DNA of 64,000 bases from Octopus vulgaris (lineage: Eukaryota). The notes beneath the pieces are model-generated. The model searched no databases. It had not been told where the DNA came from and was given only the letters and a program-made list of their open reading frames with translations. Position 1 is the first letter of the stretch. Each line of letters begins with the position of its first letter. A program made the translations under genes and the position numbers. The stretch covers positions 11,904,001 through 11,968,000 of the forward strand of contig OX597824.1 in the NCBI GenBank assembly GCA_951406725.2. Reading direction: 5' to 3'. Of this stretch, positions 1,831 to 61,682 are shown in pieces.

Positions 1831-2728
1831 TTTAGTGTTCACTTTCCCGTCCATGCGTGTATGGGTCAGGCAGAATTCGAAGAGGTAGATTTTCTACTGC
1901 TGGATGCCCTTCCTGTCACCAACCCTTGCCTGTTTTCCAAGCAAGGTAATATTTCCCCATGGCCAGACATGTTTTTGTAGTAGACTGAAAACAAACGACA
2001 CTGCTTGTGTACCAGTAAGTCTTGTTTACAACCATTGCATGATGTCATGGCAAGGAGGCACAAACACACAGACACCCCCACACACACATACACATACACA
2101 TGCACACACACACACATGCACACATGCATATACACACATACATGCACACACGCATACACCCACATGCACATAGGCACACTCACACACATACACATGCATA
2201 CACACAACACACACATGGACACATGCATACACACACATACATGCATACACACTCACAGACACACATGCACACACACAGATACATACCCACACACAGATAC
2301 ACTCACACACACATATATTTATGTATATTCAATGGAATACAAGGCCATGAATTTCATCAGCACCTGATGAGAACTGCCACTGGTTTCATGTAGACCAGTA
2401 CCATCTGTTCCCTTGTCAAGTGGTCAGCAAATAAACTGGCCTTGCCACTGGGTAGCTTGCTACTATACTGAGGAAGGTGTTTGGACACCCAGCAGGGCTA
2501 AAAATAAGACCTGTCAAAGGACAGATGAGCTTCCTGTAGACCGATGGCCATCCAGTTGAGGAAGGTATTGGCAAACCACCCCAATGTCTCTGCTAAGAAA
2601 AAAACTCTATGAGAAGGCCAGAACAACGTAATGCTATGGTTTCAGCCAATGGGAGAATTCGCACTTAACAAGGAAGACTTTGTTGTAGCATAACCACAAC
2701 TAACTATTTATTTGCATAATACCATTTT

Positions 2729-3332
2729 GTGGTTGATGATTTCATCTTCCTTGGCTCCAAAATAAATCGAGGTGGTAACTGCACTCCAGAAATAAGGCGG
2801 CGGATAGTACTAGGCAGAGAGGCAATGGTCAGCATGAGCAGGGTCTGGAAGAGTAGAGACATCAGCCTTGCTACCAAATGCAGACTGGTGAATGCAATTG
2901 TCTTCCCTATAGCAACATATGGATGCGAGACCTGGACACTAAAGAAAGCTGACCAGAAGAGAATTAATGCATTCGAGCTTTGGTGTTGGAGAAAACTTTT
3001 ATGGATTCCATGGACAGCAAGGCTCACCAATGGAGAAGTTCTTAACCAGATAAAGCCAAAACTGTCGCTGGAAACTAGGATCACCAAGCATAGATTGGCA
3101 TATTTTGGTCATATTATGTAGAAAAAATCCCTGGAGAAGGACATCATGCTTGGAATGGTCAGTGGCAAGAGAGGAAGAGGCCGACCAGGAACCCGCTGGC
3201 TTGACACCATCAAGAGTGATACCGGAATGGCCATAGCCAATCTGAAAGAAGCACCCAGGATAGAACTGGCTGGAGAACACTGATCCATCGAGTAACCAAG
3301 AGTTGACTTCAACTGAACAGATAGATAGATAG
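2729..3332 (+). mobile_element. RTE/BovB-like LINE 3' fragment (degenerate ORF C-terminus)
   Basis: Translates DDFIFLGSKI..EIRRRI..YGCETWT..FELWCWRKLL.IPWT..YFGHIM*..GKRGRGRP..RW.D, the conserved post-RT region of RTE LINEs. One in-frame stop; ends in an (agat)n tail. Confidence 0.9.
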
Positions 3333-7710: not shown

Positions 7711-8090
7711 AACATGTTTGGCTAGGTATTTAAGTATATCCAGGTCATAAGTCAGCATTTTATATTGTGTGTGTGGGTGCTTACACGCACACATGCACAC
7801 ACACACACATGCACTTGTATAAACTTAACCTTGTACAACAAAGAATGCAAAGCCATATGGTGGATATTTTTTCATTGTGTCCATGGTTCAGGCATTAGTT
7901 TATGTAAATTTACGAAGCACTTTACGTGAATCAGAGCTAGGTATCAGACATGTCATGAACCAGTTCAGGTAACCTTTCCAGCAGGTATAAATAACTCTGC
8001 ATATGTTGTAAAAAAGAAAACCATTAGGCAAATTTACAGAATATACAGCCGTGGTTATTCAGTTATTATAGACACGCATATCTTATTTAA

Positions 8091-8534
8091 CCCTTTCATT
8101 ACTGTATTTATTTTGAGATGTTCTGTGTTTCTTTCAATTACTTTAAATATACCAAAGAATTTAGTAAAATGACTTAGTTATCATTAACCCTTTCGTTACC
8201 AACCTGACTGAAACTGGCCCTGCCTCTGAGTACAAATGTCTTGTTTTCATAAGTTTTGAATTAAAATCTTCCACCAAACTTTAGTCACAATTTATGTTCC
8301 TAACACTAGCTTAATGGTAACTAAGTTACTTTACTAAATTCTTTGTTATATTTAAAGTAATTGAAATAAACACAGAACATCTCAAAATAAATACAGTAAC
8401 GAAAGGGTTAAGCTAGTGTTAAGAACATAAATTGTGACTAAGGTTTGGTGGAATGTTTTAACTCAAAACTTATGAAAGCAAGACATTTGTCTTCAGAGCC
8501 AGAGCTGGTTTTAGACGGGTTGGTAACGAAAGGG
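8091..8534. mobile_element. piggyBac-type MITE with a second copy nested in opposite orientation (8188-8407)
   Basis: TTAA|CCCTTTC ... GAAAGGG|TTAA termini on both copies. TTAA flanks at 8087-8090 and 8535-8538 (outer) and 8184-8187 and 8408-8411 (inner). Confidence 0.85.
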
Positions 8535-10781
8535 TTAAATGGAAGTACAAAAAAACCTGGGTGTTTTCTTCCTGGTTATGTCTAGCTAAAAATTTTAATT
8601 TTCAAACAACCAAGTCCACCTAGTCAAACTGTGAAGTATGAACTGCTATATGAAATAAGTCTCTGAGTCGTTGATGGCATCTCTTGGTAGTAAATCAATC
8701 TGCTAGAAATCACAGCAAATTTTTATTAGTCTTAAAAGGAAAATACGTCTTTTCCTTGAAAAAAAAAAAACATAGGCGCAGGAGTGGCTGTGTGGTAAGT
8801 AGCTTGCTTACCAACCACATGGTTCCGGGTTCAGTCCCACTGCGTGGCATCTTGGGCAAGTGTCTTCTGCTATAGCCTCGGGCCGACCAATGCCTTATAA
8901 GTGGATTTGATAGACAGAAACTGAAAGAAGCCTGTCGTATATATGTATATATATGTGTGTGTATATGTTTGTGTGTCTGTGTTTGTCCCCCTAGCATTAC
9001 TTGACAACCGATGCTGGTATTTTTACGTCCCCGTCACTTAGCAGTTTGGCGAAAGAGACTGATAGAATAAGTACTGGGCTTACAAAGAATAAGTCCTGGT
9101 GTTGATTTGCTCGACTAAAGGCGGTGCTCCAGCATGGCCGCAGTCAAATGACTGAAACAAGTAAAAGAGTAAAAGAGTATATAATAAAATAGCCTTACTT
9201 GGTACTCAGTGGCTTTAGATTGGTGGAACTACCAAAGTGAAGATATGTAGTCTTGTAGTTAGGTGTTGCCCTTACAATCTTGCAGTTGTGGTTTCGATTC
9301 TTGGACCAGGCAGTTCATTGTGTTCTTGAGCAAAACAACTTCATTTCACATTGCCCCTTTCCACTCAGCAGTAAATGAGTGACCCTGCAATAGACTAGCA
9401 TTCGGTTCAGAGGGGACATTGTGATCTCTGTCACTTATTTGCCATGGGAACTGATTAACCGACTTTGTGAGTCCTAATATTTGATACAGTAATGTTCAGG
9501 GGTTGTTGCTGTTGTTATCGTTGATGATGATGATGATGATGATGATGAGGATGATGACGACGACGATGAGGAGGATGAGGATGAGGGTGATGATGATGAA
9601 TTAACAAAGCGTTAAATGTGGTGCCTTGTGGTATTCATGCTCAGTTCTTTGTGTTCTGAGATCTTGGGTTTTAGATTTAATCCATCACCTGCCATCATCT
9701 GATTTAAAAGCAACACCTGGTTGGTCTTTGGGTGCCTTTAGTGGAGTTTACTCTGTTGCAAATAATTAGACCAGGTCTCTAGTCTAACGATAGATTTTCT
9801 CCTCCTTTTTTAGAAAAGGCCCTGAAAAAGGAAAGCAAAAACTAGAATCATAGATGCCACACTCCCCTCCCTGTTTAAGCAGTAAAAAATGACAAAAACT
9901 GTAAAATATGAAGGAGCCTCTATATGGTTACTTGGTACTCTACTGATTATGGTAAAATGCAATGCAGTTTCTATATAGTTAAAGGCGGCGAGCTGGCAGA
10001 AACGTTAGCACGCCGGGCGAAATGCTATGCGGTATTTCGTCTGCCGTTACATTCTGAGTTCAAATTCCGCTGAGGTCGACTTTGCCTTTCATCCTTTCGG
10101 GGTCGATAAATTAAACCCCAATTACACACTGGGGTTGATGTAATTGACTTAATCCCTTTGTCTGTCCTCGTTTGTCCCCTCTGTGTTTAGCCACTTGTGG
10201 GCAATAAAGAAATAAGAATCGTTAGCATGCCGGACAAAATGCTTAGCGGCATTTCATCTGCCGCTACGTTCTGAGTTCAAATTCCGCCGAGGTCAACTTT
10301 GCCTTTCATCCTTTCGGGGTTGATAAATTAAGTACCAGTTACGCACTGGGGTCGATGTAATCAACTTAATCCGTTTGTCTGTCCTTATTTGTCCTCTCTA
10401 TGTTTAGCCCCTTGTGGGCAATAAAGAAATAAGTATCTATATAGTTATCTGAGTTTCTGTTGATTATAAAATGTGTAGCAGAGTCTCTGTATGCTTGACT
10501 GGTGCTCTACCGATTATGAAGAGTACGAGAGAGCTTCCATATGGCTGTCTGGTACACTATTTAGAAATTTTAGGAGGGAATAGTCAATTATATTCATTTC
10601 ACTACTTTATCACCATTATTAGCCTGTCTGTAACGCTTTCATGTGGTTAGTTGAAGGGAAAGGTGAAGAACAAAAGAAAAAGGAGAGAGAAAAAGGGGAT
10701 ATGGCGAAGAGTGAGGGAGAAAGAGGGAGAGTGCTGTGTATTAAGTTTATAAAATTGTGCATAAAGTATATAAAGTGTATA

Positions 10782-12981: not shown

Positions 12982-13503
12982 TCATATCAATGAGGAGGCA
13001 TGATTTTTGTAGTCTTTCAAAATAATGTCTGGCCTATTTGCATCTATCTTTCTGTCAGTTTGAATGGTGAAGTTCCAGAGGAGTGAGATGTGGTCATTTT
13101 CAAGCACTGGAGGTGATTTGTATTCCCACCAGTTTTTTTCATGGGGCAAATCCAGGTTTTTGCAAATTACCCAGTGGATATATTGTGCAGCTCTATTGTG
13201 CCTGTTGAGATACTCTGTAGGCGCTAGAAGACTGCACTTGGAGACAACATGATCAATGGTTTCATTTTGTTGTTGACATACACGACATGTTGGGCTACTG
13301 CCGTTCTTTAATATGTTGGCCTGGTAGTTTCTTGTTGATAGGCATTGATCTTGAGCTGCTATGATAAACCCTTCTGTTTCAGATTTTAAGCCAGAAGCCA
13401 TTAGCCATTGATGGGTAAGGGCTTTGTCAACATCTGCATTATTCGCTCTCTTTGGGTATTTGCCATAGAGAGGTTTTTCTTGCCATTTATCACTCAGAAT
13501 ATC
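12982..13503 (-). mobile_element. R4/Dong-like non-LTR retrotransposon fragment (CCHC knuckle plus restriction-like endonuclease)
   Basis: ETEGFIIAAQDQ..CRVC..ETIDHVVSKC..YLNRHN..LLWNF.IQTD...ANRPDIIL is the RLE-clade C-terminal signature. Confidence 0.85.
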
Positions 13504-16463
13504 TAAGGCAGAATATCATCATCATTTTCTTTCACCAAGCATGGGAGTGGCTGTGTGGTGCATAGCTTGTTTACCAACCACATGGTTCCGGGTTCAGTCC
13601 CACTGCGTGGCACCTTGGGCAAGTGTCTTCTACTGTAGCCTTGGGTCGACCAAAGCCTTGTGAGTGGATTTGGTAAACGGAAACTGAAAGAAGCCCGTCG
13701 TATATATGTATATATATATATGTGTGTGTGAGTCTGTGTGTATGTTTGTGTGTCTGTGTTTGTCCCCCCAACATCGCTTGACAACAAATGCTGGTGTGTT
13801 TACGTTCCCGTAACTTAGAGGTTCAGCAAAAGAGACTGATAGAATAAGTACTAGGCTTTCAAAGAATAAGTCCTGGGGTCGATTTGCTCGACTAAAGGTC
13901 GTGCTTCAGCATGGCCACAGTCAAATGACTGAAACAAGTAAAAGAGTTAACGATTAACTGAGTATTTCCTTATCAGCACCATTGGTTTCCTCTGCAGAGC
14001 AAAGCAATAAAGATGATTTAGGAATACTTACTTGTAGGAAAACGATCCAGTACATTTGGGTGTATTAATCAGGGTGTGTATAGCATGTTTAGAGATGACA
14101 TTTTTCTCATTCCATGCTGGAAGAAACAAATACTTGAATATTATTTTCAAGAAGTCTTTTATAAACACCCACTTGTCACTTCAATATTCTTTTTATATAT
14201 GAACACAAACCAATCTGATAATTGTTTGTTTTTGTATTTTGTTTGTTCTTTGTTCTGTTTTTTTACATCTTACTCATGTTTTTGTTTCAACTTAATGCCA
14301 CATTCAAAATTCCATTGCTTTGATGCCAAAAGTTTTGGCCTTCAGTTTATTTGTTCAGGTCATTTCTTACTGTCTCAGTTCTCTTTTATTCTGTTTCAGT
14401 CATTTGACTGTGGCCATGCTGGAGCACCGCCTTTAGTCGAGCAAATCGACCCCCAGGACTTATTCTTTGAAAGCCTTAGTACCTATTCTATCGGTCTCTT
14501 TTGCCAAACCGCTAAATTACAGGGACGTATACACACCAGCATTGGTTGTCAAGTGACATTGGGGGTACAAACACTGACACACAAACATATACACATACAC
14601 ATACACACACATATATATACATATATATGATAGGGCTTCTTTCAGTTTCCGTCTAAAAAATCCACTCAGAAGGCTTTGGTCTGCTTGAGGCTATAGTAGA
14701 AGACACTTGCCCAAGGTGCCACACAGCGGGACTGAACCCGGAACCATGTGGTTGGTAAGCAAGCTACTTACCACACAACAGGGCATCTTATCTTTACAAT
14801 TTGAAATATTCAGAAAAAAAAGAATGGTATATAAGGATAACTGAACAGGGTTTATTGAAAAACATAGGCAAACTAAATTAAGTTTTATTAGAAACATCAG
14901 AACACTTCTACATGGGCTCCTTTGGTTGCACACCACACATCTAGATGATCTCAACTTTAATTGGTACAATGGATCGTGGAAGTTGTAAAGATAATTTAAA
15001 AACACTCTGTATGTATATCATGTGTGTGTGTGTGTGTGTTGACATTATACAAGGGTTGTAAACAAACATCATTGTCATACAAGTGGTGTACTTTGTTTCC
15101 AGTCTTTCATGAAGACGAGTCTGACCAGGGGTAAATATTACCTTCATTGGAAACAAGTGAGGGTTGATGACAGGAAGGGCATTTGGACAGAGAAAATCAG
15201 CAGATCCAAACAAACATATTTATTTCATTTCATCTAGTTTCAGCTCACGAGCTGTGGCCATGCTGGGGCACCGCCATTTATTTCATATATGAAATAGTTG
15301 TAGAATCAACAGCTTCAGTGTTTCATCTACCCTCCCCACACACACACACATATACAAACTATAATTGGATGTACATCACCAATAGCAAGTGTAGAGGAAC
15401 AGCCACTGTCCTGATCTCTAGTATTCAATGGCATAAATTCAGTGAGGGATCCTTCTCTAGGCGTAGGAGTGGCTGTGTCGTAAATAGCTTGCTTACGAAC
15501 CACATGGTTCCAGGCTCAGTCCCACTGTGTGGCACCTTGGGCAAGTGTCTTCGACTATAGCCTTGGGCCAACCATACCCTTGTGAGTGGATTTGGTAGAC
15601 AGAAACTGAATGAAGCCCGTCATATATATGTATGTATGTGTGTGTATATGTTTGTGTGTCTGTGTTTGTCTCCACAACATCGCTTAGCGGTTCGACTGGA
15701 GTCTGGGAAGCCAGAAGGTTGCACCAGGCCCTAGTCTGATCTGGTAGTGTTTCTACAGCTGGATGCCCTTCCTAACGCCAACCACTCCGTAAGTGTAGTT
15801 GGGTGCTTTTTATGTGCCACCAGCACAGGGGCCAGGCGAGGCTGGCAATGGCCACGATCTGTTGGTGCTTTTTTATGTGCCAGGAAAACTCGAGCGCATG
15901 CCAAAACCACGAATGGTCATAGTCACAACAACTGACCGCAGATAGATAGATAAATATAAATAGCATATCTGCTTGCTTGCGAAAACCTGTTGGGGCAAGG
16001 GAAATCGAAATTGAACCAAGTTCGATGACTGGCACCCATGCCAGTGGAGCGCTAACAGCTCTATCCAAGCATGTTCACTGCCAGAGCAGCTGTCTGGCAC
16101 GTAAAGAGCACCATTTGAGCGTGATCGATGTCAGCGTCACCTCACTGACACTTGTGCTGGTGGCATGTGAACAAAACATTTGAGCGAGGTCATTGCCAGT
16201 GCTGCTGGACTGACTCTCGTGCAGGTGGCACATAAAAAAAAACACCATTTTTGAGCGTGGCCGTTGCCAGTACCGCCAGACTGGCCCTCGTGCCAGTGGC
16301 ATTTTAAAAGCACCCACTACACTCTCGGAGTGGTTGGCGTTAGGAAAGGCATCCAGCTGTAGAAACTCTGCTAGATCAGACTGGAGCCTGGCACAGCCAT
16401 CTGGTTTGCCAGACCTCAGTCAAATCGTCCAACCCATGCTAACATGGAAAGCAGACGTTAAAC

Positions 16464-20479: not shown

Positions 20480-21470
20480 AAAGTGAGTATCATTACAATA
20501 AACACATTTTTGCCAATGAGTTACAAGTTTGTTTATTCTGGTAACACAAAAATATGGGTTTCTGAATGAACTCTTTCAATGCACTTTCAGCACCGGTTTG
20601 ATTTTTGAACTCCTTCTCTCACAAGAAACCATCAAGGTGCTTGAAAAAGTGGTAGTCAGAAGGAGAAAAGTCTGGGGAATAAGCTGGGTAGGGAAGAACT
20701 TTGTGGCCAAGTTCCCTTCAACTTCTGGAACATCATTAGTGAAATGTGTAGTTAAGCATTGTCCTCAAGAATGATTGGCGCTGTCTTCTGTTGACCTGTC
20801 TGGGATGGATGAGTAACAGTTTTACATTCATTTTGGCAATTTCATGGCGATATGTTTCTGCGGTAATGGTTTTTCTGGGCTTTAAAAAGTTATAGTGGAG
20901 GAATCCAGCAGTACACCACCAAACAGTTACCACAACCTTCTTTCTGAAGAGCTCAGGTTTAGGGAAGGTTTTCTGTTCTTCATTTTGGTCCAACCACTGC
21001 AAAGAACGTATTTTATTATTGTACAGAATCCACTTTTCATCACAAGTTACAATACAGTTGAGAAATGGATTGGTCTGGTTACGGAGGAGCGATGAGCAAA
21101 TTTCATGTCTGACCATTTTCTGATTTTCATTCAAATCATGTGGTACCTATTTGTTGGACTTTTTTGATTTTCCAATCGCATGGAAATGGTTACAGGCAGT
21201 TTTCTGGCTAACTTGAAATTCTTTTGCCAATTTTCAAGTGGTTTTACGTGGATCTATCTCAATGACGGTCTTTAATTGATCGTCATTGATGACAGATGAG
21301 TGTCCACTATGCTCACAATCTTCAAGGCTCATGTCTCCACTGCGAAATCGCTTCAACCATTTTAAAGCTGACCACTCACTGGTCATTTCCTCACCAAATG
21401 TTTCACTGATATCACAAGCAGTTTCAGCTGCTTTACGCCTTTTTTTGAAGTTCAATAGCAAAATTCAATG
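20480..21470 (-). mobile_element. Decayed mariner transposase
   Basis: Frameshifted pieces: AAETACDISETFGEE..WLKRFRSGD.SLED; VPHDLNENQK..IVTCDEKWILYNN; YSPDFSPSDYHFF. Confidence 0.9.
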
Positions 21471-21816
21471 CCAGGATTTCAACATTTTTGGCACAAGGCC
21501 AGCAGTTTTGAGGGAGCAGATAAGTCAATTATATGGACCCCAATGCCCAACTTGTACATATTTTATCAACTCTAAAAAAGATGGAAAGCAAAGTCGACCT
21601 TGGCAGCATAGAATTCTGAAAAATTGATCTAAATTCACTGAAATGTGTCAGCCTGATTTTTCATTTACTTCACATGGTTGAATTGAGGAAAGGATATTTG
21701 CAATATCAATATATGGATATTTTGTTTACAGCATTGATTTGACCAATCAATCAGATTTTAAGACCACAACTGTAGTGGAAGAGATGCACAAGACAAATGG
21801 CCTTGAAGTGTTTAGT

Positions 21817-21880
21817 TTGATTGATTGATTGATTCTAGTTTCAGCTCACGAGCTGTGGCCATGCTGGGGCACTGCCATTT
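21817..21880 (-). mobile_element. Short LINE-like 3' tail with stem-loop and (AATC)n end
   Basis: The minus strand reads AAATGGCAGTGCCCCAGCATGGCCACAGCTCGTGAGCTGAAACTAG(AATC)n. Same unit at about 15220-15279(-) and 25033-25095(+). Confidence 0.65.
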
Positions 21881-22178
21881 AAAAATTAGATTGGTGTTCA
21901 GTTATATCGAACAGGCTGCTAACCGACAACTATTCACAGGTGCGATCCCACTACTGCTCGACACGGGGCCTTTTGCCTGCTGCGTTTCCGCCCTGGGCCG
22001 AAGCGACCCTCCTTAGACAACCTGGTCCTGATGAGCTCCCTCTCCAGCACCATATTGATGCCGAGCTTAGCGCGGACACCCGGTCGCCATAGAAGACCGA
22101 CTACCAGGACTCCCATCCTCAAACCGGCCAACCAACCAAGCCTCCGAGTAGCTAGATTACAGGAGCACGCCACAACTC
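21881..22178 (-). ncRNA. Signal recognition particle RNA (7SL), gene or recent retrocopy
   Basis: The 298-nt minus strand is colinear with metazoan 7SL. Alu-domain TGGCGTGCTCCTGTAATCTAGCTACTCGGAGGCT (UGUNR motif); GGGTGTCCGCGCTAAGCTCGGCATCAATATGGTG; helix-6 GAG-GGAG-CTC; helix-8 CCCAGGGCG-GAAA-CGCAGCAGG; CAGTAGTGGGATCGCACCTGTGAATAG; ends in a T5 Pol III terminator. The first few nt appear absent. Confidence 0.93.
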
Positions 22179-22182
22179 TTAA

Positions 22183-22393
22183 CCCTTTCATTACTGTATT
22201 TATTTTGAGATGCTCTGTGTTTCTTTCAATTACTTTAAATATAACAAAGAATTTAGTAAAATAACTTAGTCATCATTCAGCTTGTGTTAGGAACATAAAT
22301 TGTGACTAAGGTTTGGTGGAAGATTTTAATTAAGAACTTATGAAAACGAGACATCTGTACTAAAGAGCCAGAGCTGGGTTGGTAACGAAAGGG
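22183..22393. mobile_element. piggyBac-type MITE (same family as 8091-8534)
   Basis: TTAA|CCCTTTC...GAAAGGG|TTAA. Another copy at 59813-60032. Confidence 0.85.
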
Positions 22394-23578
22394 TTAATAT
22401 CTTCAGTTCAAATCCTACCAACATTGATTCAGGCTTTCATCTTTTCAGATTAATAAAACGATAACCTTAAAGTGTGAAGCTGGCAGAATTTATAGCATAC
22501 TGGACAAAATGGTTAACAGCATTTCATCTTTCTTTACATTCTGGGTTCAAATTTCACAGAGGTCAACTTTGTCTTTTGTCCTCTCGGGGTTCAGTAAAAT
22601 AAGTATCAGTTAAGCACATGGGTTGATGTAACTCTCCCCTAAAATTGTTGGCCTTGTGCCAAAATTTGAAACAAATAAATTAAGAACCAGTGGGATACTG
22701 TGGCTAAATTTCATTGACTATTTCTTTCTCCAAAGTGTGGGATGAACTGGCAGAATTATTAGTATGTTGGGCAAAATGTTAGGCAGCATTTCTTCTAGTT
22801 CTTTAAGTGCTGAGTTCAAATCCTGCCGAGGTCAAGTTTGCCTCTCATCCCATCAGGATTGAGTAAATGAAGTACTAGTCAAGTGCTGGAGTTAATACCA
22901 TCAACTTGGCCCCTCCCCTCAAAAATTGCTGACCTGGAATTCTGGAATGGACTTATGTCCCATTCAGGTTAATGTGTAAACTCAGTCACTAATACATCAC
23001 AGAAACCAGGCAACCAAGCTTACAAGTCCCAGGACTTGAGAAAAAGTGTGGGACCTTGTGTCATCATCAATATCATCACTGTTTTAACATCTACATTTCC
23101 ATGCCCTCATGGGTCAGATGATACCTTCTTGAGGTAAATTTTTTCTAAGACCAAATGCTCATCCTGTTGCCAACTCCTACCATTTTCCAAATAGAATAAT
23201 ATTTTCCTTAGTTCTTAGAACAACGAATAACTCAACAGTTGGACAAAAAAAGTAACATTATTTGTATAATAGTGACTTTTCATTACAATTAATACTCTTA
23301 GTTAGCTAGCATCGGTCAGATGGAACTCATTGAAGCAGATTTCCTGTGCCAAGATGCCCTTGTTCTTACCAATCTTCATCTGTTTCCAAGCAAGGAAATA
23401 TTCCCCCATAGCTAGACATGTTTTCATGGAAGTTAGGAAACATGAGACATTGTTTCTGTGAGGGTGAAGCTTGTTTATTACCATTGTGTGATGTCAAGAC
23501 AAGGAGACAGATATGCACACACACATACACAAAAATATATGTAGATATACATGTGTGGGTGTGTGTGTTTACATATAT

Positions 23579-23790: not shown

Positions 23791-23879
23791 CATATGTCTG
23801 TCTGTCTATATGTATGTATGAGTTGCACATGAGAAAGTAAGGAGGGATGTCAGGAAGGGCATCGCTGTTACACTTCCAG

Positions 23880-24300
23880 ATGGGAAGGGTCTTCCTATGA
23901 TGTTGACATGCAGTGTCTGTGCAAGACCCTGCCTCAGTAAAGCTGGACTCAAGGGTCATCTTCGTAGTCATAAAGCGAGACAGATGAGTGTCAACTTGGC
24001 CACTGGTGGTGGTGTAACATACCATACTAATCATATCTGTCTGGCATGTGGAAGAGAGTGTAATTCGGCAGGAGGACTTAAATGACATGCAAAGGTACAT
24101 GAAGCCCAGTTACAACTACAGCTGGCTATTGCCGGTAAAGGCTTTAGTTGCCAATTCTGTACAAGACATTTTAGACCTTTAGCTGGGCTAAAAAGTCACA
24201 TTTGATCACAGCACCAGTAACAGTTAAGCTTCGTGCAATGGCCATACCCGATAACGAGGGGGCCGCCATAATGTATGTATGTATGTATGTATGTATGTAT
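23880..24300 (+). mobile_element. LINE (probably RTE clade) 3' end encoding three C2H2-like zinc fingers, with stops
   Basis: CSVCARPCLSKAGLKGHLRSH; CLACGRECNSAGGLK*HAKVH; CQFC..AGLKSHI*SQH, then a short UTR and an (atgt)n tail. Confidence 0.6.
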
Positions 24301-25137
24301 GTGTGTGTGTATGTGTGTGTGTGTGTGTATGTATGTAAGATATGTATGTATGTGTTTCCATGAACCAAATCCACTCACAAAGCTTTGGTCAACCTGAGGC
24401 TGTAGTAGCAGACATTACCCAGCATACCTCACAGTGACACCAAGCCCCAAACCCCTAACCCTAAACCCCAAACCACATGGTTGCAAAATAAACTCCTTAA
24501 TCACATAAGCCCTGCCTGAACGTAGTTCATTCATGCTTCTGTCTGTTCATATATTTAAAATAGTTAGCATTAGAAACCTAATTAAAAATAATTATGTGAT
24601 AAGGAAAAGGTATTAGCTTGATGACTGATGTTATTTCAATTATATTGACAAATATAGCAAGCAGGGTGCTGGGGATGTTTCTACATCGGTAGGTTGCTTT
24701 AGTAAAGAATGTTAAATATTCATATCTGCTCATGTGCAATATTGTGCATCTAATTAGTAGGGAATCAAGCAATTGGGTATTGTTATTTGTTGGATGCTGG
24801 TAATATGGCACGACTGACTGGACATGGAATCTGTTTTGGTGCCAGTACTGTTTAGCACTGGAGACTAACACAAATGCTCGCAGATAAAGCTGGACCTCTT
24901 CCTGTCAGGTGTCCCAGATGAACCAACTTCGCAGCAGGAGGTGCAGATGAGGGCAGCTGCATCAAACTCTCTCAGGCACCAAATGTCAATTGCTAAAAAA
25001 ACATTCATGAAGTAAAATTATGTAGCAACACCAAATGGCGGTGCCCCAGCATGGCCACAGCTCGTGAGCTGAAACTAGATGAAATAAATAAATGAAATAA
25101 AAAAAGATATACATGAACAGACATATACACATACTGT

Positions 25138-35036: not shown

Positions 35037-35288
35037 TGGTCAGAGAACGTCTGGTCAGAGAACGTCTGGTCAGAGAACGTCTGGTCAGAGAACGTCTGGT
35101 CAGAGAACGTCTGGTCAGAGAACGTCTGGTCAGAGAACGTCTGGTCAGAGAACGTCTGGTCAGAGAACGTCTGGTCAGAGAACGTCTGGTCAGAGAACGT
35201 CTGGTCAGAGAACGTCTGGTCAGAGAACGTCTGGTCAGAGAACGTCTGGTCAGAGAACGTCTGGTCAGAGAACGTCTGGTCAGAGAAC
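35037..35288. repeat. Perfect 15-bp minisatellite (TGGTCAGAGAACGTC), 16.8 copies
   Basis: 16 identical units plus 12 nt, with no variant unit. Confidence 0.97.
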
Positions 35289-35923
35289 AAGCATACACAA
35301 AAGATGATGATGACAGTGGTGGCAATGTTAGTAGTGTTGTTGGTGGTGTCATCATCATCATCATCGTCATGAAGATGATGGTGGTGATGATGATGGAGGA
35401 AGAGGGGGTGGTAGTGGTGGTGGTGGTGGTATCAGTGATGCTGCTACTGTTGATGATGATAACTGTGGTTGAGGTGGAGGTGGAGGTGGTGGCAATGATG
35501 CTGCTGCTGTTGTTGTTGTTGTTGTTGTTAAGCAACAAGATGGGTAAGGGTGATTAAATGATGGTCTAGGGCTTAGGGGTGGGAGACCCCAGACCTTGGG
35601 GAAAAAAAACCACAACTTTGGTCGTCTTGTTGTAGTCGAGGGCTCTTTGTTGACGCCCGACACCACTGGGAGGTGGCCTTTGAAGTCACTGGAAATGGAG
35701 ATCTCCAGGTCCAAATTCTTGGACGGCTGCTGCTGCTGCTGCTGTCGATGATGATGATGATGATGGTGGAGGTGGTGGTGGTGGTGGTGGTGATAGTAAT
35801 GATAAAGATGTGATGGTAGTGTGGTGGTGAAGATGATGATAATGACGATGATGACGATGATGACGACAAAAATAACGATGACAATAATAATGATTATTAA
35901 CGTATTTACCTTTCTCGTTACAG

Positions 35924-36088
35924 CCAATCACACCTGTCTTGACAAGGAAAGACTTGCCAGTTTCCTCGACGTCATCGCCAGCGATCCTCTCTATGCATAT
36001 AATGTTATACAGGGGAACAGCCAAGTGACAAACCGATGGACATTTTCTGGATCTTTCTGTTTTGTGGTAACAACAGTTACAACAATTG
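35924..36088 (+). CDS. K2P (KCNK, TALK/TREK-like) potassium channel: cap plus pore helix 1 exon
   Basis: Acceptor tttctcgttacag|, donor |gtaagt, phase 1/1. Encodes xNHTCLDKERLASFLDVIASDPLYAYNVIQGNSQVTNRWTFSGSFCFVVTTVTTI(G), with the cap Cys and P1 pore helix. Confidence 0.9.
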
Positions 36089-37350
36089 GTAAGTGGTACC
36101 TTTTTCTCAATCATACACACCTGTCTCTTTGTCAGCATACCAGGTACACCTGTGTATTTGCATTTTTATAGTTAAAAAGACTGACAACAATCAGTAAATT
36201 ATACTTCTCATTCATCATCATCATCATTATTGTTTTAACGTCCAATTTTCCATGCTTGCATGGGTTAGGTGGAGTTTTTTGAGGCAGGTTTTCTATGGCT
36301 AGATGCTCTTCCTGTCACTAACCCTCACTTGCTTTCAAGCAAGATATTTCCAATGGCCAGACATGTGTTCCATGGAAGACTAGTTTTTAGCCATCATATT
36401 ATGTCAAAGACTTAGCTGCATACACACACACATGCGCGCACACAATCACACACGCACAAATATATATACATATTAGAAGATCCCTAGCTCCAGTCTCAGC
36501 AGTGAACTTGGAACCTAACGGATGACCAATTATAGCACTTACTGAGCATACCAATTTGTTTAGGTCACCAATGAACTAAACCCCACCATATTCTTTATAT
36601 ATATATATATATATATATCATCATCATCGTTGTTGTTTAAAGGCTGCTTTCCAATCTGGTCTGGCAAAGTTTCTACAGCTGGATGCCCTTCCTAACACCA
36701 ACCACACCAAGAGTGTAGTGGGTGCTTTTTACATGCCACCAGCACAAGAGACAGTCAGGCGGTACTGGTGTCAAACATGCTCGAATGGTGCTTTTTATGT
36801 GCCACCGGCACAGGACCAGTTGGCTGGCACTGGCATCGACCACGCTTGAATGGTGCTTTGCACGTGCCACCGGCATGGGTGCCAATCAGGCGGTACTGTC
36901 ATCAGCCATGACAATGACTTCACTTGCCTCAACAGGTTTTCACAACTGCATTTTATTGCCCAATGATTAAGTGAGCTGGTTATGCTGCACTGGCATAGGC
37001 CACGGTTACAGTCTCACTTGGCTTGCCAGGTCTTCTCAAGCACATCATATCTCCAAAGGTCTCGGTCACTTGTCATCTATATATATCGTTAATCGAATAT
37101 ATTCAATAAGAATACAATATACTGAATTTCTAATAAGTGCTCTTGGTAGGGAAATGTCTTAAACATTAAAGGTATTTAGACATTTAATAAAAGCAATTAT
37201 ATATTATAAAGTAAGAGCAGGAAAATTACATCAAAAATCATCACAGGAGATAAAAGTCCCAAATAATATTGTATCAATAGATAGATGTATAAATATATAA
37301 AGTCTGATTATTTAAAAAGTTTAAAATATCTTACGATCGTTTCATGAATG

Positions 37351-40004: not shown

Positions 40005-41327
40005 TAATCTCAAAAAGATAAGTACTGCAGGTCTTATTGACTAAACCCTTCAAGGCACGCACACACACACACACACACACACGCACATGCACACATACAT
40101 ACATACACACGCACACACACACACACACACACATCAGCACGGACACACACATCTGCACGCACACACACACACACACACATGTACAACAGGGCTTCTTTCA
40201 GTTTCCATCTAGCAAATCCTGCTTTGGTCAGCCTGAGGCTATAAGAGAAGACACTTGTTCAAGGTGCCACACAGTGGCACAGTGGGACATTGCATTATTT
40301 TAACGTCTTAAGGCAGCAAGCTGGCAGAATTGTTAGCACACAGGACAAAATGCTTATTGCTCTTTTGCCTGTCACTACGCTCTGAGTTCAAATTCCGCCG
40401 AGGTGGACTTTGCCTTTCATCCTTTCAGGGTCAATAAATTAAGTACCACTTGCATACTGGGGTCAATGAAATCGACTTACCCCTCCCCCAAATTTCAGGC
40501 CTTAATATTTGATCGAGGTCGATGCCAGTGCCACTGGACTGGCTTCTGTGAAAGTGGCACGTAAAAAACACCCACTACAATCTCAGAGTGGTTGGTGTTA
40601 GGAAGGGCATCTAGCTGTAGAAACAATGCCAGATCAAGATTGGAGCCTGGTGCAGCCATCTGGTTCGCCAGCCCTCAGTCAAATCGTCCAAACCATGCTA
40701 GCATGGAAAGGGGACGTTAAACGATGATGATGATGATGATGGGGAGGAGGATGCCTTTAGCAGAAAGGATCGTTTTAATACTCTTTACTCTTTACTCCCT
40801 TTTACTTGTTTTAGTCATTTGACTGTGGCCATGCTGGAGCACCACTTTTAGTCGAGCAAATCGACCCCAGGACTTATTTTTTGTAAGCCTAGTACTTGTT
40901 CTGTTGGTCTCATTTGCTGAACTGCTAAGTTATGGGGACGTAAACACACCAGCATTGGTTGTCAAGCGATGCTGGGGCAACAAACACAGACACACAAACG
41001 TATACATACACACAAACACACACACACATGTATATATACAAATGGGTTTCTTTTAGTTTCTGTCTACCAAATCCTCTCACAAGGCTTTCGTTGGCCCGAG
41101 GCTATAGTAGAAGACACTTGCCCATGGTGCCACGCAGTGGGACTGAACCCGGAACCGTGTGGCTGGTAAGCAAGCTACTTACCATACAGCCACTCCTGCG
41201 ACAATGTCTTGTTTTATTTATTTTTACTGTTTCTTCTTCACCTTTCCTTCCTTCATCTCAAATACAGAATTGGTTTTTTTTTTCTAATTAATTTAATATT
41301 TCGTCTGTTTTCTTCTTTTCCTTGTAG

Positions 41328-41660
41328 GTTATGGCGTCATGGCTCCTGTGACAGATATCGGCAAAATCGTGGTGATCATATATGCTCTGATAGGCATCCC
41401 TTTGACTCTTGTCATGTTGGGACATATCGGAGACAAGCTGAAGGATGTTGCCAACAGAATCAACAACTTGAGCCTTTTCTCTCGTAAACCAATCATTAAC
41501 AAAGCCGCAAACATGGCCATTATCATTATTCTGGGGTTGACGTTACTCTTTGTAGCCCCTGCGCTCATTTTTCGAGCGGTGGAAAAATGGACGATCTTAG
41601 ACGCTATATATTTCTGTTTTATCACTCTTAGTACCATCGGATTTGGGGATTATGTTGTTG
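41328..41660 (+). CDS. K2P channel exon: GYG filter 1, M2, M3, pore 2 (GFG)
   Basis: Acceptor ttttccttgtag|, donor |gtaagt, phase 1/1. Splicing to the previous exon rebuilds TTIGYG. Reads GYGVMAPVTDIGKIVVIIYALIGIPLTLVML...EKWTILDAIYFCFITLSTIGFGDYVV(G). Confidence 0.96.
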
Positions 41661-51321: not shown

Positions 51322-52592
51322 TTGGGTTGGCAAGAAAGTAATTTCGGTTTTTTAGTTGTTTGAAATAAAGTCATTTTTTCGTACAAATAATGAACTGTAA
51401 TCAATTATATATTTTCCATTTTGTTTGATGACCTTTTGCCCTCTTTCTGGCAACTTCATGATTCTGCACTCATAGAACTTCTGGTCCTTATCAGCCAAAA
51501 ACTGAAGCAAGTGTGATTTTAGGTTATCATCATTATTGAAAGTTTTACCATTCAAAGAATTTCGCAAACTTCGAAATAAATGGTAATCTGATGGTGCAAG
51601 GTCAGGGCTATATGGTGGATGTGATCATCACTTCCCAACCAAGCTCCAATAATTTTTCATGAGTTAGCAAAGACATGTGTGGTCTAGTGTTATCGTGGTG
51701 GAACACGAATCCTTTACGATTTACCAATTCTGGATGTTTTTCTTTGATTGCTTCCTCCAGTTTCATTAGTTCTTGAAAGTAAACATCTGAATTGATCGTT
51801 TGGTTCCTTGGAAGCAGCTCAAAATACCCAACATCTTTGTAATCCCACCAAATTGACAGCATTGATGCAATTGATGCAATTCAGCTTTCGGTGTGGTCTG
51901 TGCTGGAACATGATCGTTTTTGATTGATGTTATGGTAGACAATCCACTTCTCATCACCAGTGATAATTTGTTTTAAAAAAAAGGTAGATTTCATTGCTTT
52001 TGAGATGCATATCGCAAATATTGATTCGTTGTGTTAAGTGAATCTCTTTCAATTTATGTGGAACTCAAATTTTGAGCTTCTTAACAAGTCCAAGACATTT
52101 TAAGTGATTTTCAATTGTTGTGTGTGATACATTTAACTTCTCTGCAATCTCTCACACAGTTATATGACAATCAGATTCAATTATGGATTTGACTCAGTCA
52201 TCATCATCTTAAGTGGATTCAATCAAAATGTTGGTCGTCTTTGAGTGAAAAATTTCCAGAATGAAATTTTTAAAATCATTTCTGACATGTGCGTTCTGTT
52301 AAGCAATCAAGGCCATAAACTTCACATATCTCTTTGTGAAACTCAGCAGCTTTCTTGCCTTTATGGAAATATAAAAGTAAAATATGACGAAAATGTTCGT
52401 TTTTGCACTCCATGTTAAAATTGACACTGAACTAACAGCTGTAAACAAAATTATGCATAGTTTGCTTCTAAAGTAAACTAAAAGTAATGGCTGTCAAATG
52501 TCAAAAGACAAAAATCATAACATTGACAAAAGTCGTTCAAAAAAATCCTAGCATTATTTGTGAAAAATGAAATTACTTTCTTGCCAACTCAA
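51322..52592 (-). mobile_element. Near full-length decayed mariner element
   Basis: TIRs ttgggttggcaagaaagtaatttc / gaaattactttcttgccaactcaa; about 1.27 kb. Fragments ITGDEKWIVY, MLSIWWDYK..YFELL, FHHDNTRPH, YSPDLAPSDYHLF. Confidence 0.92.
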
Positions 52593-58748: not shown

Positions 58749-61682
58749 ACTTAGTGTTGATTGTTGGAAAAAAGAGCACTCAACACCACAGTAAAAGTAA
58801 AGTCATTCACATGCTACTCTGAATTCTATGCACAAAATACATATAAAGACACACAAAGATACATGTATTTTTTCATTTTATTTTAAAACTTTTAATTTCA
58901 AAAGAATGCTTTTTGAAGAACAGTTTTTCATAAATAATACACTTCAAAGTGAACAGATAATTAACTTTGGAAACAAACCCAAATTCCATCCGCACACCAT
59001 GAAGCTCTGAATGTCTCTTTTCAATGCTGAATGACACATTTGATCAGTGAAAATTTAGTTTTTGCCAAAGTGTAATACCAGTGTTTGAGAGTGACCAATA
59101 TAGCTGGTGTAATTGGCATTATTGTATTACTGTGGTTTATTTTATGGATTCCAGATGGATTTATAGGATCCAGTTAGCTCAAGACATCATCAGGAAGAAC
59201 CACGTCCGGTTTCAGCCCCTACTCCTCTACTGTTTTGATGTGCCCCCCTCCCCCACCTTTTGGAGGTGTCTTCAGTTCTGGTGTTGGGTGCATGTCTTCT
59301 TTCTTCTGTTCCCTGACCTCTTCGATGTAGCATCAACAAGTGTCACGGGCCTCTGACTGTCTTGTCAAATTTTTCCCTTTTAATACCTACTGCTAGGCTC
59401 CAGCAGGCAGCCTCAGCAAGTTGTCACGTGACACTGTCTCAATTTTAACTGACCAATGAAGGTGCATAGTTTCAGCCCACACATTCTCTAAACGATACTG
59501 TCATCTACCTAAAGGGATGAAGTTTAAATCCTGTTATGAACTCAAGGGCACATATAATTGCTAAATGCTAAAATTATATCCAGGAATCCCTGAAAAGATA
59601 TGAAGAAAAGCAAAATGAAACACAACTCTCTAATGTTTCAGCAGCTGCTCTTAATGAAGGACATCTATTCATTCTGTTGATTTTCTTCCCACTCCTTTTC
59701 TTTACTCCATATTGTAATTGCATTGATGCTCCACGTTTGTTTGTTATTTCTATTTTTGGAGGAATTTTTGCCTTGGTTTTGCCCATATTTTAACTGGATA
59801 TCTGGATATTAACCCTTTTGATACCAACCCGGCTGAAACTGGCTCTGGCCCTGAGTACAAATGTCTTGTTTTCATAAGTTTTGAATTAAAATCTTCCACC
59901 AAACCTTAGTCACAATTTATGTTCCTTACACTAGCTTAATGGTAACTAAGTCATTTTACTAAATTCTTTGTTATATTTAAAGTAATTGAAAGAAACACAG
60001 AGCATCTCAAAATAAATACAGTAACAAAAGGGTTAACCCTTTCACTACAAAATTTATTCTTATGGTTATTTCAGCCAGTATTAATGTTAAAAATCTACTA
60101 AAAATAGAACTGATATTTTCTGCCAACTCATGTTGTCTCAATAAAGTTAACAAATCTCAACAGAAAATAATTTCAAAAGACATTTTCAACAAAAAATAGG
60201 TTGTTGTGTAAAACTGCTTGCTGCGGTTAAGGGTAATGAAGTTCTGAGTTGATATATCTGCTTTCCACAGTAAAAAAAATTAATGATTGTACTAGCACAA
60301 ACTTAATCTGGGATACCACTAGAGCTATCAATCAATCAATCAAATTATAATCCTTAAAACTCAGTGAAATACCATCTCTAAAACTCAACAGAATCACTGA
60401 AAATCAATAAATTATAATCAAAATTTCAATGAATTTTAATCTTTAAACCTTCTAGCATTCAGATTACTCTGTCATATGTTATGCTTATTTATTTACATTG
60501 CTATGAATTAATCATGCATCATTTTGCGGTTTCAGGGTTTTAATGATGTGATTGTTTTTTTTTGTTTTTTTTTACTATGACATTGCAGAGTAGGTGTGAG
60601 ATGTTGGGTCTGGCCAGTTTGAACACAAAAGAGGCAAAATACTTTGGCCAGATATGGTCAGTTTAAATGCTAAACAGTTAAATCTCAATGAAATGTAAAC
60701 TAAAACTCAGTCAATAATAAACTCTAAAACCCGAGGTGAATGGGTTTGCTAGGTTTGTACAAGAGTCTACAGAGTGAAATGTAAAATAAATGGAATTTGA
60801 GTCGTTTCTTCAAAAGATATTAAAAAAGAATGTCAGATATTTTCTTTTGTTACAAAACAAACACCAACATACACTTTATTTCTTATTTCTTTATTGCCCA
60901 CAAGGGGCTAAACATGGAGGAGACAAACAAGGACAGACAACCGGATTAAGTCAATTACATCGACCCCAGTGCATAACTGGTACTTAATTTATCGACCCTA
61001 AAGGATGAAAGGCAAAGTCGACCTCAGCGGAATTTGAACTCAGAACGTAAAGACAGACGAAATACTGCTAAGCATTTCGCCCGACGTGCTAACGATTCTA
61101 CCAGCTTGCTGCCTTATTTCTTTAATACACTTTATTTCTTTAATTCTACTGAACTGCATGTCTAACCAAAAGCATCTTGGGGAAAATGAGCAATAAAATA
61201 AAGATGATGAGGATGAAGGTGATGATGATGAGGATGATGACAGGTCATCATCATTATAACTGTAAAGTTATTTTAAAATTTTAGTATGGTGTTTTATTGA
61301 CTTGTGTTTGTTTTCTACTAAAAGGAAAAAAGGGGGAAAAAATGATAGTCTAGATATTCTTTGAAATTTATATTGAGTTATAGTAACGTGTACTTCAATG
61401 TTCCTAGAACTTCTGGTCTTGAGTTTATTTCCAGGTGGGCAGAGTCACTAAACGTTTATTTTGGAAAATTGTGAAAATATTTTGCTCATGCTGGCTAAAG
61501 ATCTGATCTCCATGCTAAAGTCTTGTGATACAAGCAGGAAAATAGAATTCAAAACATGATTTTACATGCATGTATATATGTACATATATATGCATGTGTG
61601 TGTAAATATATATATATATATTATGTGGTAAATCTTCAACAAGTAGAATAGTACTTGATCAGCTAAGAGAGCAAAGATAACA

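What the first reader, a model, noticed from the sequence alone, without database searches (positions are those of the whole stretch)
21817..22178. 7SL (SRP) RNA fused to a LINE-like 3' tail: possible 7SL chimeric retrocopy or nascent SINE
Seen: a 298-nt SRP RNA on the - strand keeps the UGUNR motif, the helix-6 GGAG loop and the helix-8 GAAA loop (stem GCG/CGC). Its T5 terminator runs with no spacer into AAATGGCAGTGCCCCAGCATGGCCACAGCTCGTGAGCTGAAACTAG(AATC)n, which is homologous to the 3' tail of SINE family A here. The first few 5' nt look missing. Established: 7SL-derived SINEs are best known from primates and rodents (Alu, B1), and Pol III RNA/LINE-tail chimeras form by template switching. 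Inference: this is how a new SINE is born, and it would be unusual in an apparent cephalopod.
Basis: partly seen in the sequence, partly recalled or inferred. Interest (0 to 1): 0.8.

Follow-up and report, generated by a model that had tools for sequence, protein, structure and literature searches.

The report
One-off 7SL–LINE chimeric retrocopy
A nearly complete copy of the signal-recognition-particle (7SL) RNA is joined directly to the last 47 bases of a LINE retrotransposon in what is likely an octopus-like genome; it is likely a one-off copying accident of a known type, not a new family of mobile elements.

Summary
Rfam Metazoa_SRP scores 232.7 bits, and the T5 run joins a 47-nt two-hairpin tail plus (AATC)4. 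Two corrections. The tail is the LINE's own 3' UTR: 46/47 identical to a tail following a LINE ORF2 C-terminus at 24887-25079, against a median 31/47 for SINE family A. The clipped 5' end abuts the TTAA duplication of a piggyBac-like MITE. No genome was held. In assembled contigs of three public DNA runs, tail depth is 330-2,800 times the highest 7SL bin, and the window's letters at five 7SL sites stand at roughly single-copy depth. All 6 listed 7SL contigs that pass the 3' end lack the tail. No listed contig spans the junction. The T5 would stop Pol III before the tail, and the S domain is intact, unlike established 7SL SINEs. Best reading (0.65): a one-off template-switch retrocopy like platypus U6-L2 chimeras. 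Independent tail insertion 0.2; low-copy nascent SINE 0.08. My searches found no cephalopod report, but the kind is known.

The parts
21886..22178 (-). 7SL (SRP) RNA copy, Alu and S domains both present, about five 5' nucleotides missing; differs from the dominant 7SL sequence of related runs at five or more sites
   Evidence: Rfam 232.7 bits; five contigs align from 22178 only, and majority letters differ at 21920, 21922, 21928, 21941, 22083
21881..21885 (-). T5 run: Pol III terminator, likely the oligo-U end of the copied transcript
   Evidence: sequence; four or more T is the Pol III terminator (PMC11260458 passage)
21834..21880 (-). 47-nt 3' UTR end of an APE-endonuclease/RT LINE, predicted to fold as two stem-loops
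   Evidence: 46/47 identical to 25033-25079 and 15233-15279; folds
21819..21834 (-). (AATC)4 terminal microsatellite
   Evidence: sequence; the other two tail copies end in ATGAA/ATAA-type repeats
22179..22397 (.). piggyBac-like MITE (22183-22393, terminal inverted repeats 11/14) between two TTAA duplications; the TTAA at 22179-22182 abuts the clipped 7SL 5' end
   Evidence: related copies near 8184-8411 and 59809-60036
22394..22448 (-). decayed fragment of an old SINE-like repeat, likely the 5' flank of the insertion site
   Evidence: profile of 12 window copies, model positions 53-96, 9.5 bits
21787..21817 (-). likely continuation of the same old repeat on the far side of the MITE+7SL+tail block
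   Evidence: joined flanks score 14.7 bits, co-linear to model position 142; 0 of 300 shuffled and 6 of 599 random-window controls reach it; no hit on its own
24887..25079 (+). reference copy: 5'-truncated LINE, ORF2 C-terminus (stop 25013-25015) plus short 3' UTR ending in the same tail
   Evidence: 79% identical over 42 aa to residues 992-1033 of P0001, a 1033-aa endonuclease/RT protein
15233..15279 (-). reference copy: the tail alone, flanked by a 10-nt duplication

Best explanation
This is a nearly full-length 7SL RNA copy fused to the last 47 bases of a LINE, likely made in one insertion event in which the LINE reverse transcriptase switched templates, and likely unable to spread. Shown: the 7SL identity, the LINE origin of the tail, the direct same-strand junction, the 5' clip and the MITE neighbour. 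Inferred steps: (1) the LINE protein primed on its own RNA at the 3' microsatellite and copied the two stem-loops; (2) it left the LINE RNA at the base of the first stem-loop, the point where the solo copy and the SINE A tails also begin; (3) it jumped to the oligo-U 3' end of a 7SL transcript and copied all but about five bases (RNA ligation before copying would look the same); (4) the product landed in an old repeat with at most a 2-nt duplication; (5) a TTAA-targeting MITE came to lie at the 5' junction, order unknown. Pol III would stop at the T5, so a transcript would lack the tail the LINE protein is predicted to need, and upstream promoter help is replaced by the MITE.
For: Both 7SL ends match transcript ends, and the parts are directly joined in one orientation, as in described chimeras (PMC2104539 passage). 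The tail is LINE 3' UTR. The 7SL-joined, solo and SINE A tails all start at the same column. The flanks read as two halves of one old repeat (modest). Independent arrival of a tail within 3 nt of a given point is about 1e-4 at the window's tail density. The window's letters are a minority: the other letter holds 84-100% of depth in 14 of 15 run-by-site cells (44% in one), leaving 0-4 single-copy equivalents. All five are transitions; two lie at CpG sites of the majority sequence, as does the one tail change. Tail depth is 328, 2,802 and 937 times the highest 7SL bin in X1, X2, X4. Of 14 listed 7SL records, 7 reach the 3' end: 1 stops there and 6 run on 16-199 letters without the tail. Platypus U6-L2 chimeras have the same build: clipped RNA, short LINE piece, 1-9 bp duplications (PMC4476161 section 10).
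Against: No informative target-site duplication encloses the whole unit: a 2-nt one fits this model, a 3-nt one fits independent insertion. No listed contig spans the 7SL/tail junction; 59,742 pieces and 1,432 loose ends were not shown. The listed records are the longest, which favours old diverged copies over young identical ones, and they are perhaps only 4-5 independent loci. None of the five substitutions breaks a predicted pair: four interchange G-U and Watson-Crick pairs, one is unpaired, which also fits a constrained gene variant. A MITE lies exactly at the other junction, so one coincidence of that size happened here anyway. Summed contig depth is not a copy number. The 7SL of run X11 was nearly absent from the laying although the index gave it 0.41 of the words, so 7SL depth may be undercounted.
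Confidence: 0.65

Rival explanations
1. Two steps: a 7SL copy (pseudogene or minor gene) was there first, and a severely 5'-truncated LINE later inserted by itself directly behind the T5.
For: The tail does insert alone, truncated at this same point (15233-15279, 10-nt duplication). It is very abundant, tens of thousands of times single-copy depth. A 3-nt AAA duplication would fit. Other 7SL copies exist without this tail. The five substitutions keep pairing.
Against: About 1e-4 per site at window density, about 2% if 200 copies are allowed. No 7SL gene flank remains on either side: the flanks read as one old repeat. As a working gene it lacks its first bases and its upstream region and differs from the dominant sequence.
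Confidence: 0.2
2. A low-copy, young SINE family: full-length 7SL head plus LINE tail, copied as a unit from a master whose T5 is read through or which is transcribed by Pol II.
For: It carries exactly the tail module that SINE family A uses, with both stem-loops intact. 7SL-like depth is 9-190 single-copy equivalents across bins and runs, and what follows the near-identical majority copies was not displayed. Hagfish has a 7SL SINE with a LINE-derived tail (PMC7245038).
Against: The T5 lies before the tail. The S domain is kept, whereas established 7SL SINEs share a central deletion (PMC7245038; PMC13023118). Window-specific letters are at 0-4 copy equivalents, and 6 of 6 listed contigs that pass the 3' end lack the tail. 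There is no second copy in 64 kb against 13 SINE A-type tails. The O. vulgaris table of recently active SINEs has no 7SL class, though 893 families are unclassified (PMC13282606).
Confidence: 0.08
3. Assembly artefact joining a 7SL copy to a repeat end.
For: No listed contig spans the 7SL/tail or MITE/7SL junction. The best run holds 0.67 of the words. One X1 contig joins 22172 to 21883, skipping the 7SL, with the letters between not known.
Against: Both outer flanks are identical in X1 (records 1 and 8, 0 differences), and the tail-to-flank junction is present in X1, X2 and X4. Contigs drop rare branches between repeats. The junction falls exactly at the biological 3' end and at the recurrent tail start.
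Confidence: 0.05

Closest known systems
Platypus U6-L2 and U6-Mon-1 chimeras; Anolis U6 chimeras with L1, L2, RTE-X (Doucet et al. 2015, PMC4476161; abstract and section 10 read)
   Same: Pol III RNA copy, mostly 5'-clipped, directly upstream of a short piece of a stem-loop-recognising LINE; microsatellite end; tiny duplications; independent one-off events
   Different: RNA is 7SL, not U6; host is likely an octopod; no informative duplication could be shown here
Human 7SL/LINE-1 chimeric insertions (PMC11838501, passages and section 22 read; 7SL also listed among chimera heads in PMC2104539, passages)
   Same: 7SL fused to a LINE 3' piece; rare (a few to at most 21 loci for each newly found RNA type)
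   Different: L1 is a poly(A)-type LINE; the tail here is a 47-nt two-hairpin 3' UTR of a LINE whose clade was not tested
Hagfish SINE1-1_EBu (Kojima 2020, PMC7245038; parts 1-3 of 4 read)
   Same: 7SL head plus LINE-derived tail with a microsatellite end, outside mammals
   Different: 2,363 full-length copies, S domain deleted, bipartite RTE tail, about 17-bp duplications; that paper uses the internal deletion to tell it from a chimeric retrocopy, and the deletion is absent here
P7SL_MD (marsupials) and P7SL_Cpo (guinea pig), as described in PMC7245038
   Same: full-length 7SL with S domain
   Different: poly(A) tail, over 12,000 copies for P7SL_MD; even these are not accepted there as SINE families
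Alu, B1, Tu, Urop (PMC13023118, passages)
   Same: 7SL-derived, Alu domain present
   Different: about 183-nt central deletion, poly(A) tails, L1-driven, about 280,000 copies for Urop

Membership tests
SRP (7SL) RNA sequence, Rfam RF00017 | covariance-model score above gathering, Alu and S domains | tested here: met
   232.7 vs 70 bits, model 1-299; true homology starts at model position 6
Functional 7SL gene | intact 5' end and native upstream region | tested here: not met
   about five bases missing, MITE TTAA adjacent
Functional 7SL gene | matches the dominant/expressed sequence | tested here: not met
   minority letter at five sites in DNA runs; the RNA run showed almost no 7SL when laid, so expression is judged only indirectly: 19.3 of 49 words expected if five sites differ, 19-20 held by X11-X14, whose RNA label is a guess
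Functional 7SL gene | base pairing preserved | tested here: met
   none of the five changes breaks a predicted pair; five sites give little power
Small-RNA/LINE chimeric retrocopy | 5' part is a (near) full-length cellular RNA, 3' part a 5'-truncated LINE, directly joined, same strand | tested here: met
Small-RNA/LINE chimeric retrocopy | one target-site duplication around the whole unit | tested here: inconclusive
   only 2 nt possible; 27.5% of platypus U6-L2 chimeras also had none found
Small-RNA/LINE chimeric retrocopy | both parts absent together from the pre-insertion allele | tested here: inconclusive
   flanks rejoin into one old repeat at modest significance; no outgroup empty site seen; tail-to-flank junction present in all three DNA runs
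7SL-derived SINE family (SINE1) | many dispersed copies with the same head-tail junction | tested here: inconclusive
   indirect evidence against (1 copy in 64 kb; depth ratios; 6 of 6 contigs without tail); the junction could not be counted because no genome was held
7SL-derived SINE family (SINE1) | central S-domain deletion | tested here: not met
   whole model matched with one 1-nt gap
7SL-derived SINE family (SINE1) | Pol III transcript runs through the tail (no internal T4 or longer) | tested here: not met
   T5 at 21881-21885 precedes the tail; actual read-through not measured
7SL-derived SINE family (SINE1) | 3' end shared with a partner LINE | tested here: met
   46/47 identity with the LINE 3' UTR
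CR1/L2-group LINE as tail donor | RT phylogeny within the clade | not tested
   P0001 has endonuclease and RT domains; the clade label is recalled from the C-terminal motif; mollusc CR1 tails with stem-loops are described in PMC4824008 (passages)

The most novel reading that the evidence does not exclude
Some of the tens of near-identical 7SL-like copies seen in the read depth also carry this LINE tail, making a low-copy, S-domain-intact 7SL SINE family in octopods: the first outside chordates, caught before the Alu-type deletion.
Probability: 0.08. Interest if true: 0.75.

Novelty: new member of a known kind. Interest (0 to 1): 0.3.

Why it matters
As a one-off it extends small-RNA/LINE template-switch chimeras to a likely cephalopod and to 7SL with a stem-loop-type LINE tail. 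It shows the raw material of a 7SL SINE and why it likely failed: a terminator left between head and tail, and an undeleted S domain. The shared start point of the 7SL-joined, solo and SINE A tails marks the 47-nt two-hairpin unit as the likely minimal signal for this LINE, which can be tested. If the junction proved multicopy, it would be a 7SL SINE outside the groups listed in 2026 (supraprimates, hagfish, shrew moles; PMC13023118) and would test whether S-domain loss must come before amplification.

Tried and rejected
Genome-wide BLAST of the junction: not possible, no genome is held. Exact-pattern scans found nothing: tail in viral and metagenome contigs, 7SL in metagenome, genome and viral contigs; these collections are not expected to hold octopus DNA. 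Earlier findings of the scan: four look-ups, nothing. RNA run X11 gave depth 0-2 over the 7SL, so it says nothing on expression; lack of cover is not counted as evidence. Runs X15-X20 (0.20-0.27 of words, metatranscriptomes) were not used. Pairwise alignment of the downstream flank alone to seven old-repeat copies was no better than shuffles; only the joined profile test gave signal. 'Tail comes from SINE family A' was rejected. 'This LINE prefers TT/AAA sites, which makes independent insertion likely' is not supported by the two other window copies. Whole-molecule minimum-energy folding did not recover the SRP fold and was replaced by a duplex of the two long-helix strands. The bacterial promoter/terminator scan does not apply. 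Literature searches for a cephalopod 7SL SINE or chimera listed no paper whose title or abstract reports one; only the papers cited were opened. Repbase, Dfam, subscription papers, the O. vulgaris repeat library and the supplementary tables of PMC11838501 were not seen and may bear on novelty. The one supplement searched (PMC13282606, 5,371 characters of text) had no '7SL' or 'SRP'.

Full report
Observation. Rfam lists one RNA in the window: Metazoa_SRP at 21886-22183 on the minus strand, 232.7 bits, all 299 model positions, one 1-nt gap. The copy ends in T5 (21885-21881), followed without spacer by a 47-nt segment (21880-21834) and (AATC)4. There is no second 7SL copy in the window.

The 5' end. 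The first five positions Rfam counts belong to a 211-bp MITE (22183-22393) with inverted ends and TTAA duplications, the piggyBac pattern (label from established knowledge). It has relatives near 8184-8411 and 59809-60036. Five diverged 7SL contigs from public runs align only from 22178 and have 46-294 unrelated letters before it (records 3, 4, 19, 26, 29). So about five 7SL bases are missing and the native upstream region is gone.

The tail. Sixteen tail-like segments lie in the window. Thirteen are of the SINE family A type and match the tail at 25-34 of 47 positions (median 31). The other two besides this one match at 46 of 47. One of these (15233-15279) stands alone between 10-nt duplications. 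The other (25033-25079) follows a stop codon ending a peptide 79% identical over 42 residues to the C-terminus of P0001, a 1033-aa endonuclease/reverse-transcriptase protein. The tail is therefore the LINE's own 3' UTR. It is predicted to fold as two stem-loops (z -1.6 here, -2.3 for the LINE copy), and the SINE A version keeps both stems with different letters in the second. The 7SL-joined, solo and SINE A tails all begin at the base of the first stem. The closest named relative of P0001 is from Argonauta hians (66%), consistent with an octopod host. The LINE clade was not tested.

The insertion site. The flank beyond the MITE matches positions 53-96 of a profile built from 12 window copies of an old repeat (9.5 bits). 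Joined to the flank beyond the tail it extends co-linearly to position 142 (14.7 bits). None of 300 shuffled controls and 6 of 599 random window segments reach that score; the downstream flank alone gives no hit. This is modest evidence that MITE, 7SL and tail interrupt one old repeat and that no 7SL gene flank is present. No informative duplication was found: 2 nt would enclose the whole unit, 3 nt the tail alone.

Copy number, indirectly. No genome is held. Of 24 listed runs, four were laid on 21560-22560, all as assembled contigs: three DNA-sized runs of organisms A, B, C and one presumed RNA run. X1 matches both outer flanks with no difference (records 1, 8), so organism A is the same or a very close species. 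The contig from the downstream flank runs into the tail in all three DNA runs, so the tail insertion predates their split (X4 differs by 6 letters and 1 gap in 282). Relative to listed single contigs, summed depth is 27-190, 19-75 and 9-81 over the 7SL bins and about 62,000, 211,000 and 76,000 over the tail. The tail exceeds the highest 7SL bin 328-, 2,802- and 937-fold. The tool warns that summed depth is not a copy number, so I use it as an order of magnitude only. At 21920, 21922, 21928, 21941 and 22083 another letter holds 84-100% of depth in 14 of 15 cells (44% in one), leaving 0-4 single-copy equivalents for the window's letter; 54 further rows were not shown. All five are transitions, two at CpG sites. 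Fourteen listed records lie on the 7SL. Seven reach its 3' end; one stops there, and six, 12-14% diverged, continue 16-199 letters without the tail. Some are likely the same locus in different organisms, so perhaps 4-5 loci.

Results against my reading. No listed record spans the 7SL/tail junction; 59,742 pieces were not shown, and the listed ones are the longest, which hides young identical copies. What follows the dominant near-identical 7SL copies was not displayed. The presumed RNA run showed almost no 7SL when laid, although the index credited it with 0.41 of the words; a filter probably removed it, so 7SL depth may be undercounted. None of the five substitutions breaks a predicted pair (duplex energy -63.7 vs -67.4 kcal/mol). 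One X1 contig joins 22172 to 21883, skipping the 7SL; I cannot tell a chance MITE/tail neighbour from a deletion allele. A MITE sits exactly at the 5' junction, which shows that unlikely adjacencies occur at this site.

Mechanism. Most likely (0.65) the LINE reverse transcriptase primed on its own RNA, copied the two hairpins, switched to the oligo-U end of a 7SL transcript and stopped about five bases short; RNA ligation before copying cannot be told apart from this. These steps are inferred. An independent tail insertion within 3 nt of a given point has a chance near 1e-4 at window density, about 2% over 200 copies. With the AAA duplication and the kept pairing I give that rival 0.2. A run of four or more T terminates Pol III, and 7SL-type transcription is helped by upstream sequence (PMC11260458, passages). 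A transcript of this copy would therefore likely be weak and end before the tail that a stem-loop-recognising LINE needs (PMC4476161 section 10). That argues against a SINE master (0.08). Artefact 0.05.

Comparison. It works like the platypus U6-L2 chimeras: mostly 5'-clipped RNA, short LINE piece, duplications of 1-9 bp in 72.5% of 40 cases. It also resembles the rare human 7SL/L1 chimeras (PMC11838501). It is not filed as a 7SL SINE, because the central deletion shared by Alu, B1, Tu, Urop and hagfish SINE1-1_EBu is absent and a terminator precedes the tail. Kojima notes that only a minority of LINE copies undergo template switching (PMC4494074, passages), so free tails should far outnumber chimeras, as seen here. 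The O. vulgaris table of recently active SINEs has no 7SL class but 893 unclassified families (PMC13282606, part 1 of 3); its one supplement has no '7SL'. PMC4758252 and PMC4824008 were seen as passages only. Searches listed no paper whose title or abstract reports a cephalopod case; Repbase, Dfam and subscription papers were not searchable.

Verdict. A real feature and a new member of a known kind; interest 0.3. A genome-wide count of the junction would settle the remaining SINE reading.

Noticed in passing
window 15233-15279 (-): The 47-nt LINE tail inserted entirely alone between 10-nt duplications, truncated at the same point as the 7SL-joined and SINE A tails; tail depth in public runs suggests tens of thousands of copies or more, long and short together.
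   Followed up: partly
window 24887-25079 (+): 5'-truncated LINE: last 42 codons of ORF2, stop, and a 3' UTR of only about 64 nt ending in the two-hairpin tail; possible 5-nt duplication.
   Followed up: partly
joint 21975-22128 in X1, X2, X4: One contig per run appears to skip 152 nt inside 7SL (letters between not known): possibly a single-copy internally deleted 7SL shared by three organisms, not at the Alu-type boundaries. Two more internal skips: 21940-22043 and 21976-22047.
   Followed up: no
joint 21883-22172 in X1: Single-copy-depth contig joining the MITE end plus 7 nt to three T and the tail, skipping the 7SL; chance neighbour or deletion allele.
   Followed up: no
table 8 records 2-4, 18-22, 26-31: Several dispersed 7SL-like copies, about 7-14% diverged, at single-copy depth and variously truncated, beside a dominant near-identical set at tens of times single-copy depth.
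   Followed up: partly
window 35806-36168 and 41297-41650 (+): Exons with Ion_trans_2 domains, likely a two-pore-domain potassium channel gene; the 7SL copy lies about 14 kb upstream on the other strand, intronic or not unknown.
   Followed up: partly
window 8087-8538 and 59809-60041: Nested or tandem copies of the TTAA MITE, one inserted into another.
   Followed up: no
window 20739-21146 (-): Decayed mariner-type transposase (Pfam Transposase_1, E 5.9e-23) about 700 bp downstream of the chimera; similar pieces near 51352-51967.
   Followed up: no
window 2720-3121 (+), 12982-13515 (-), 23822-24262 (+): Fragments that look like other LINE ORF2 remnants (labels recalled; no Pfam hit for the first, weak C2H2 zinc fingers for the last).
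   Followed up: no
window 35037-35288 (+): Perfect 15-bp tandem repeat, 16.8 copies, 100% matches.
   Followed up: no
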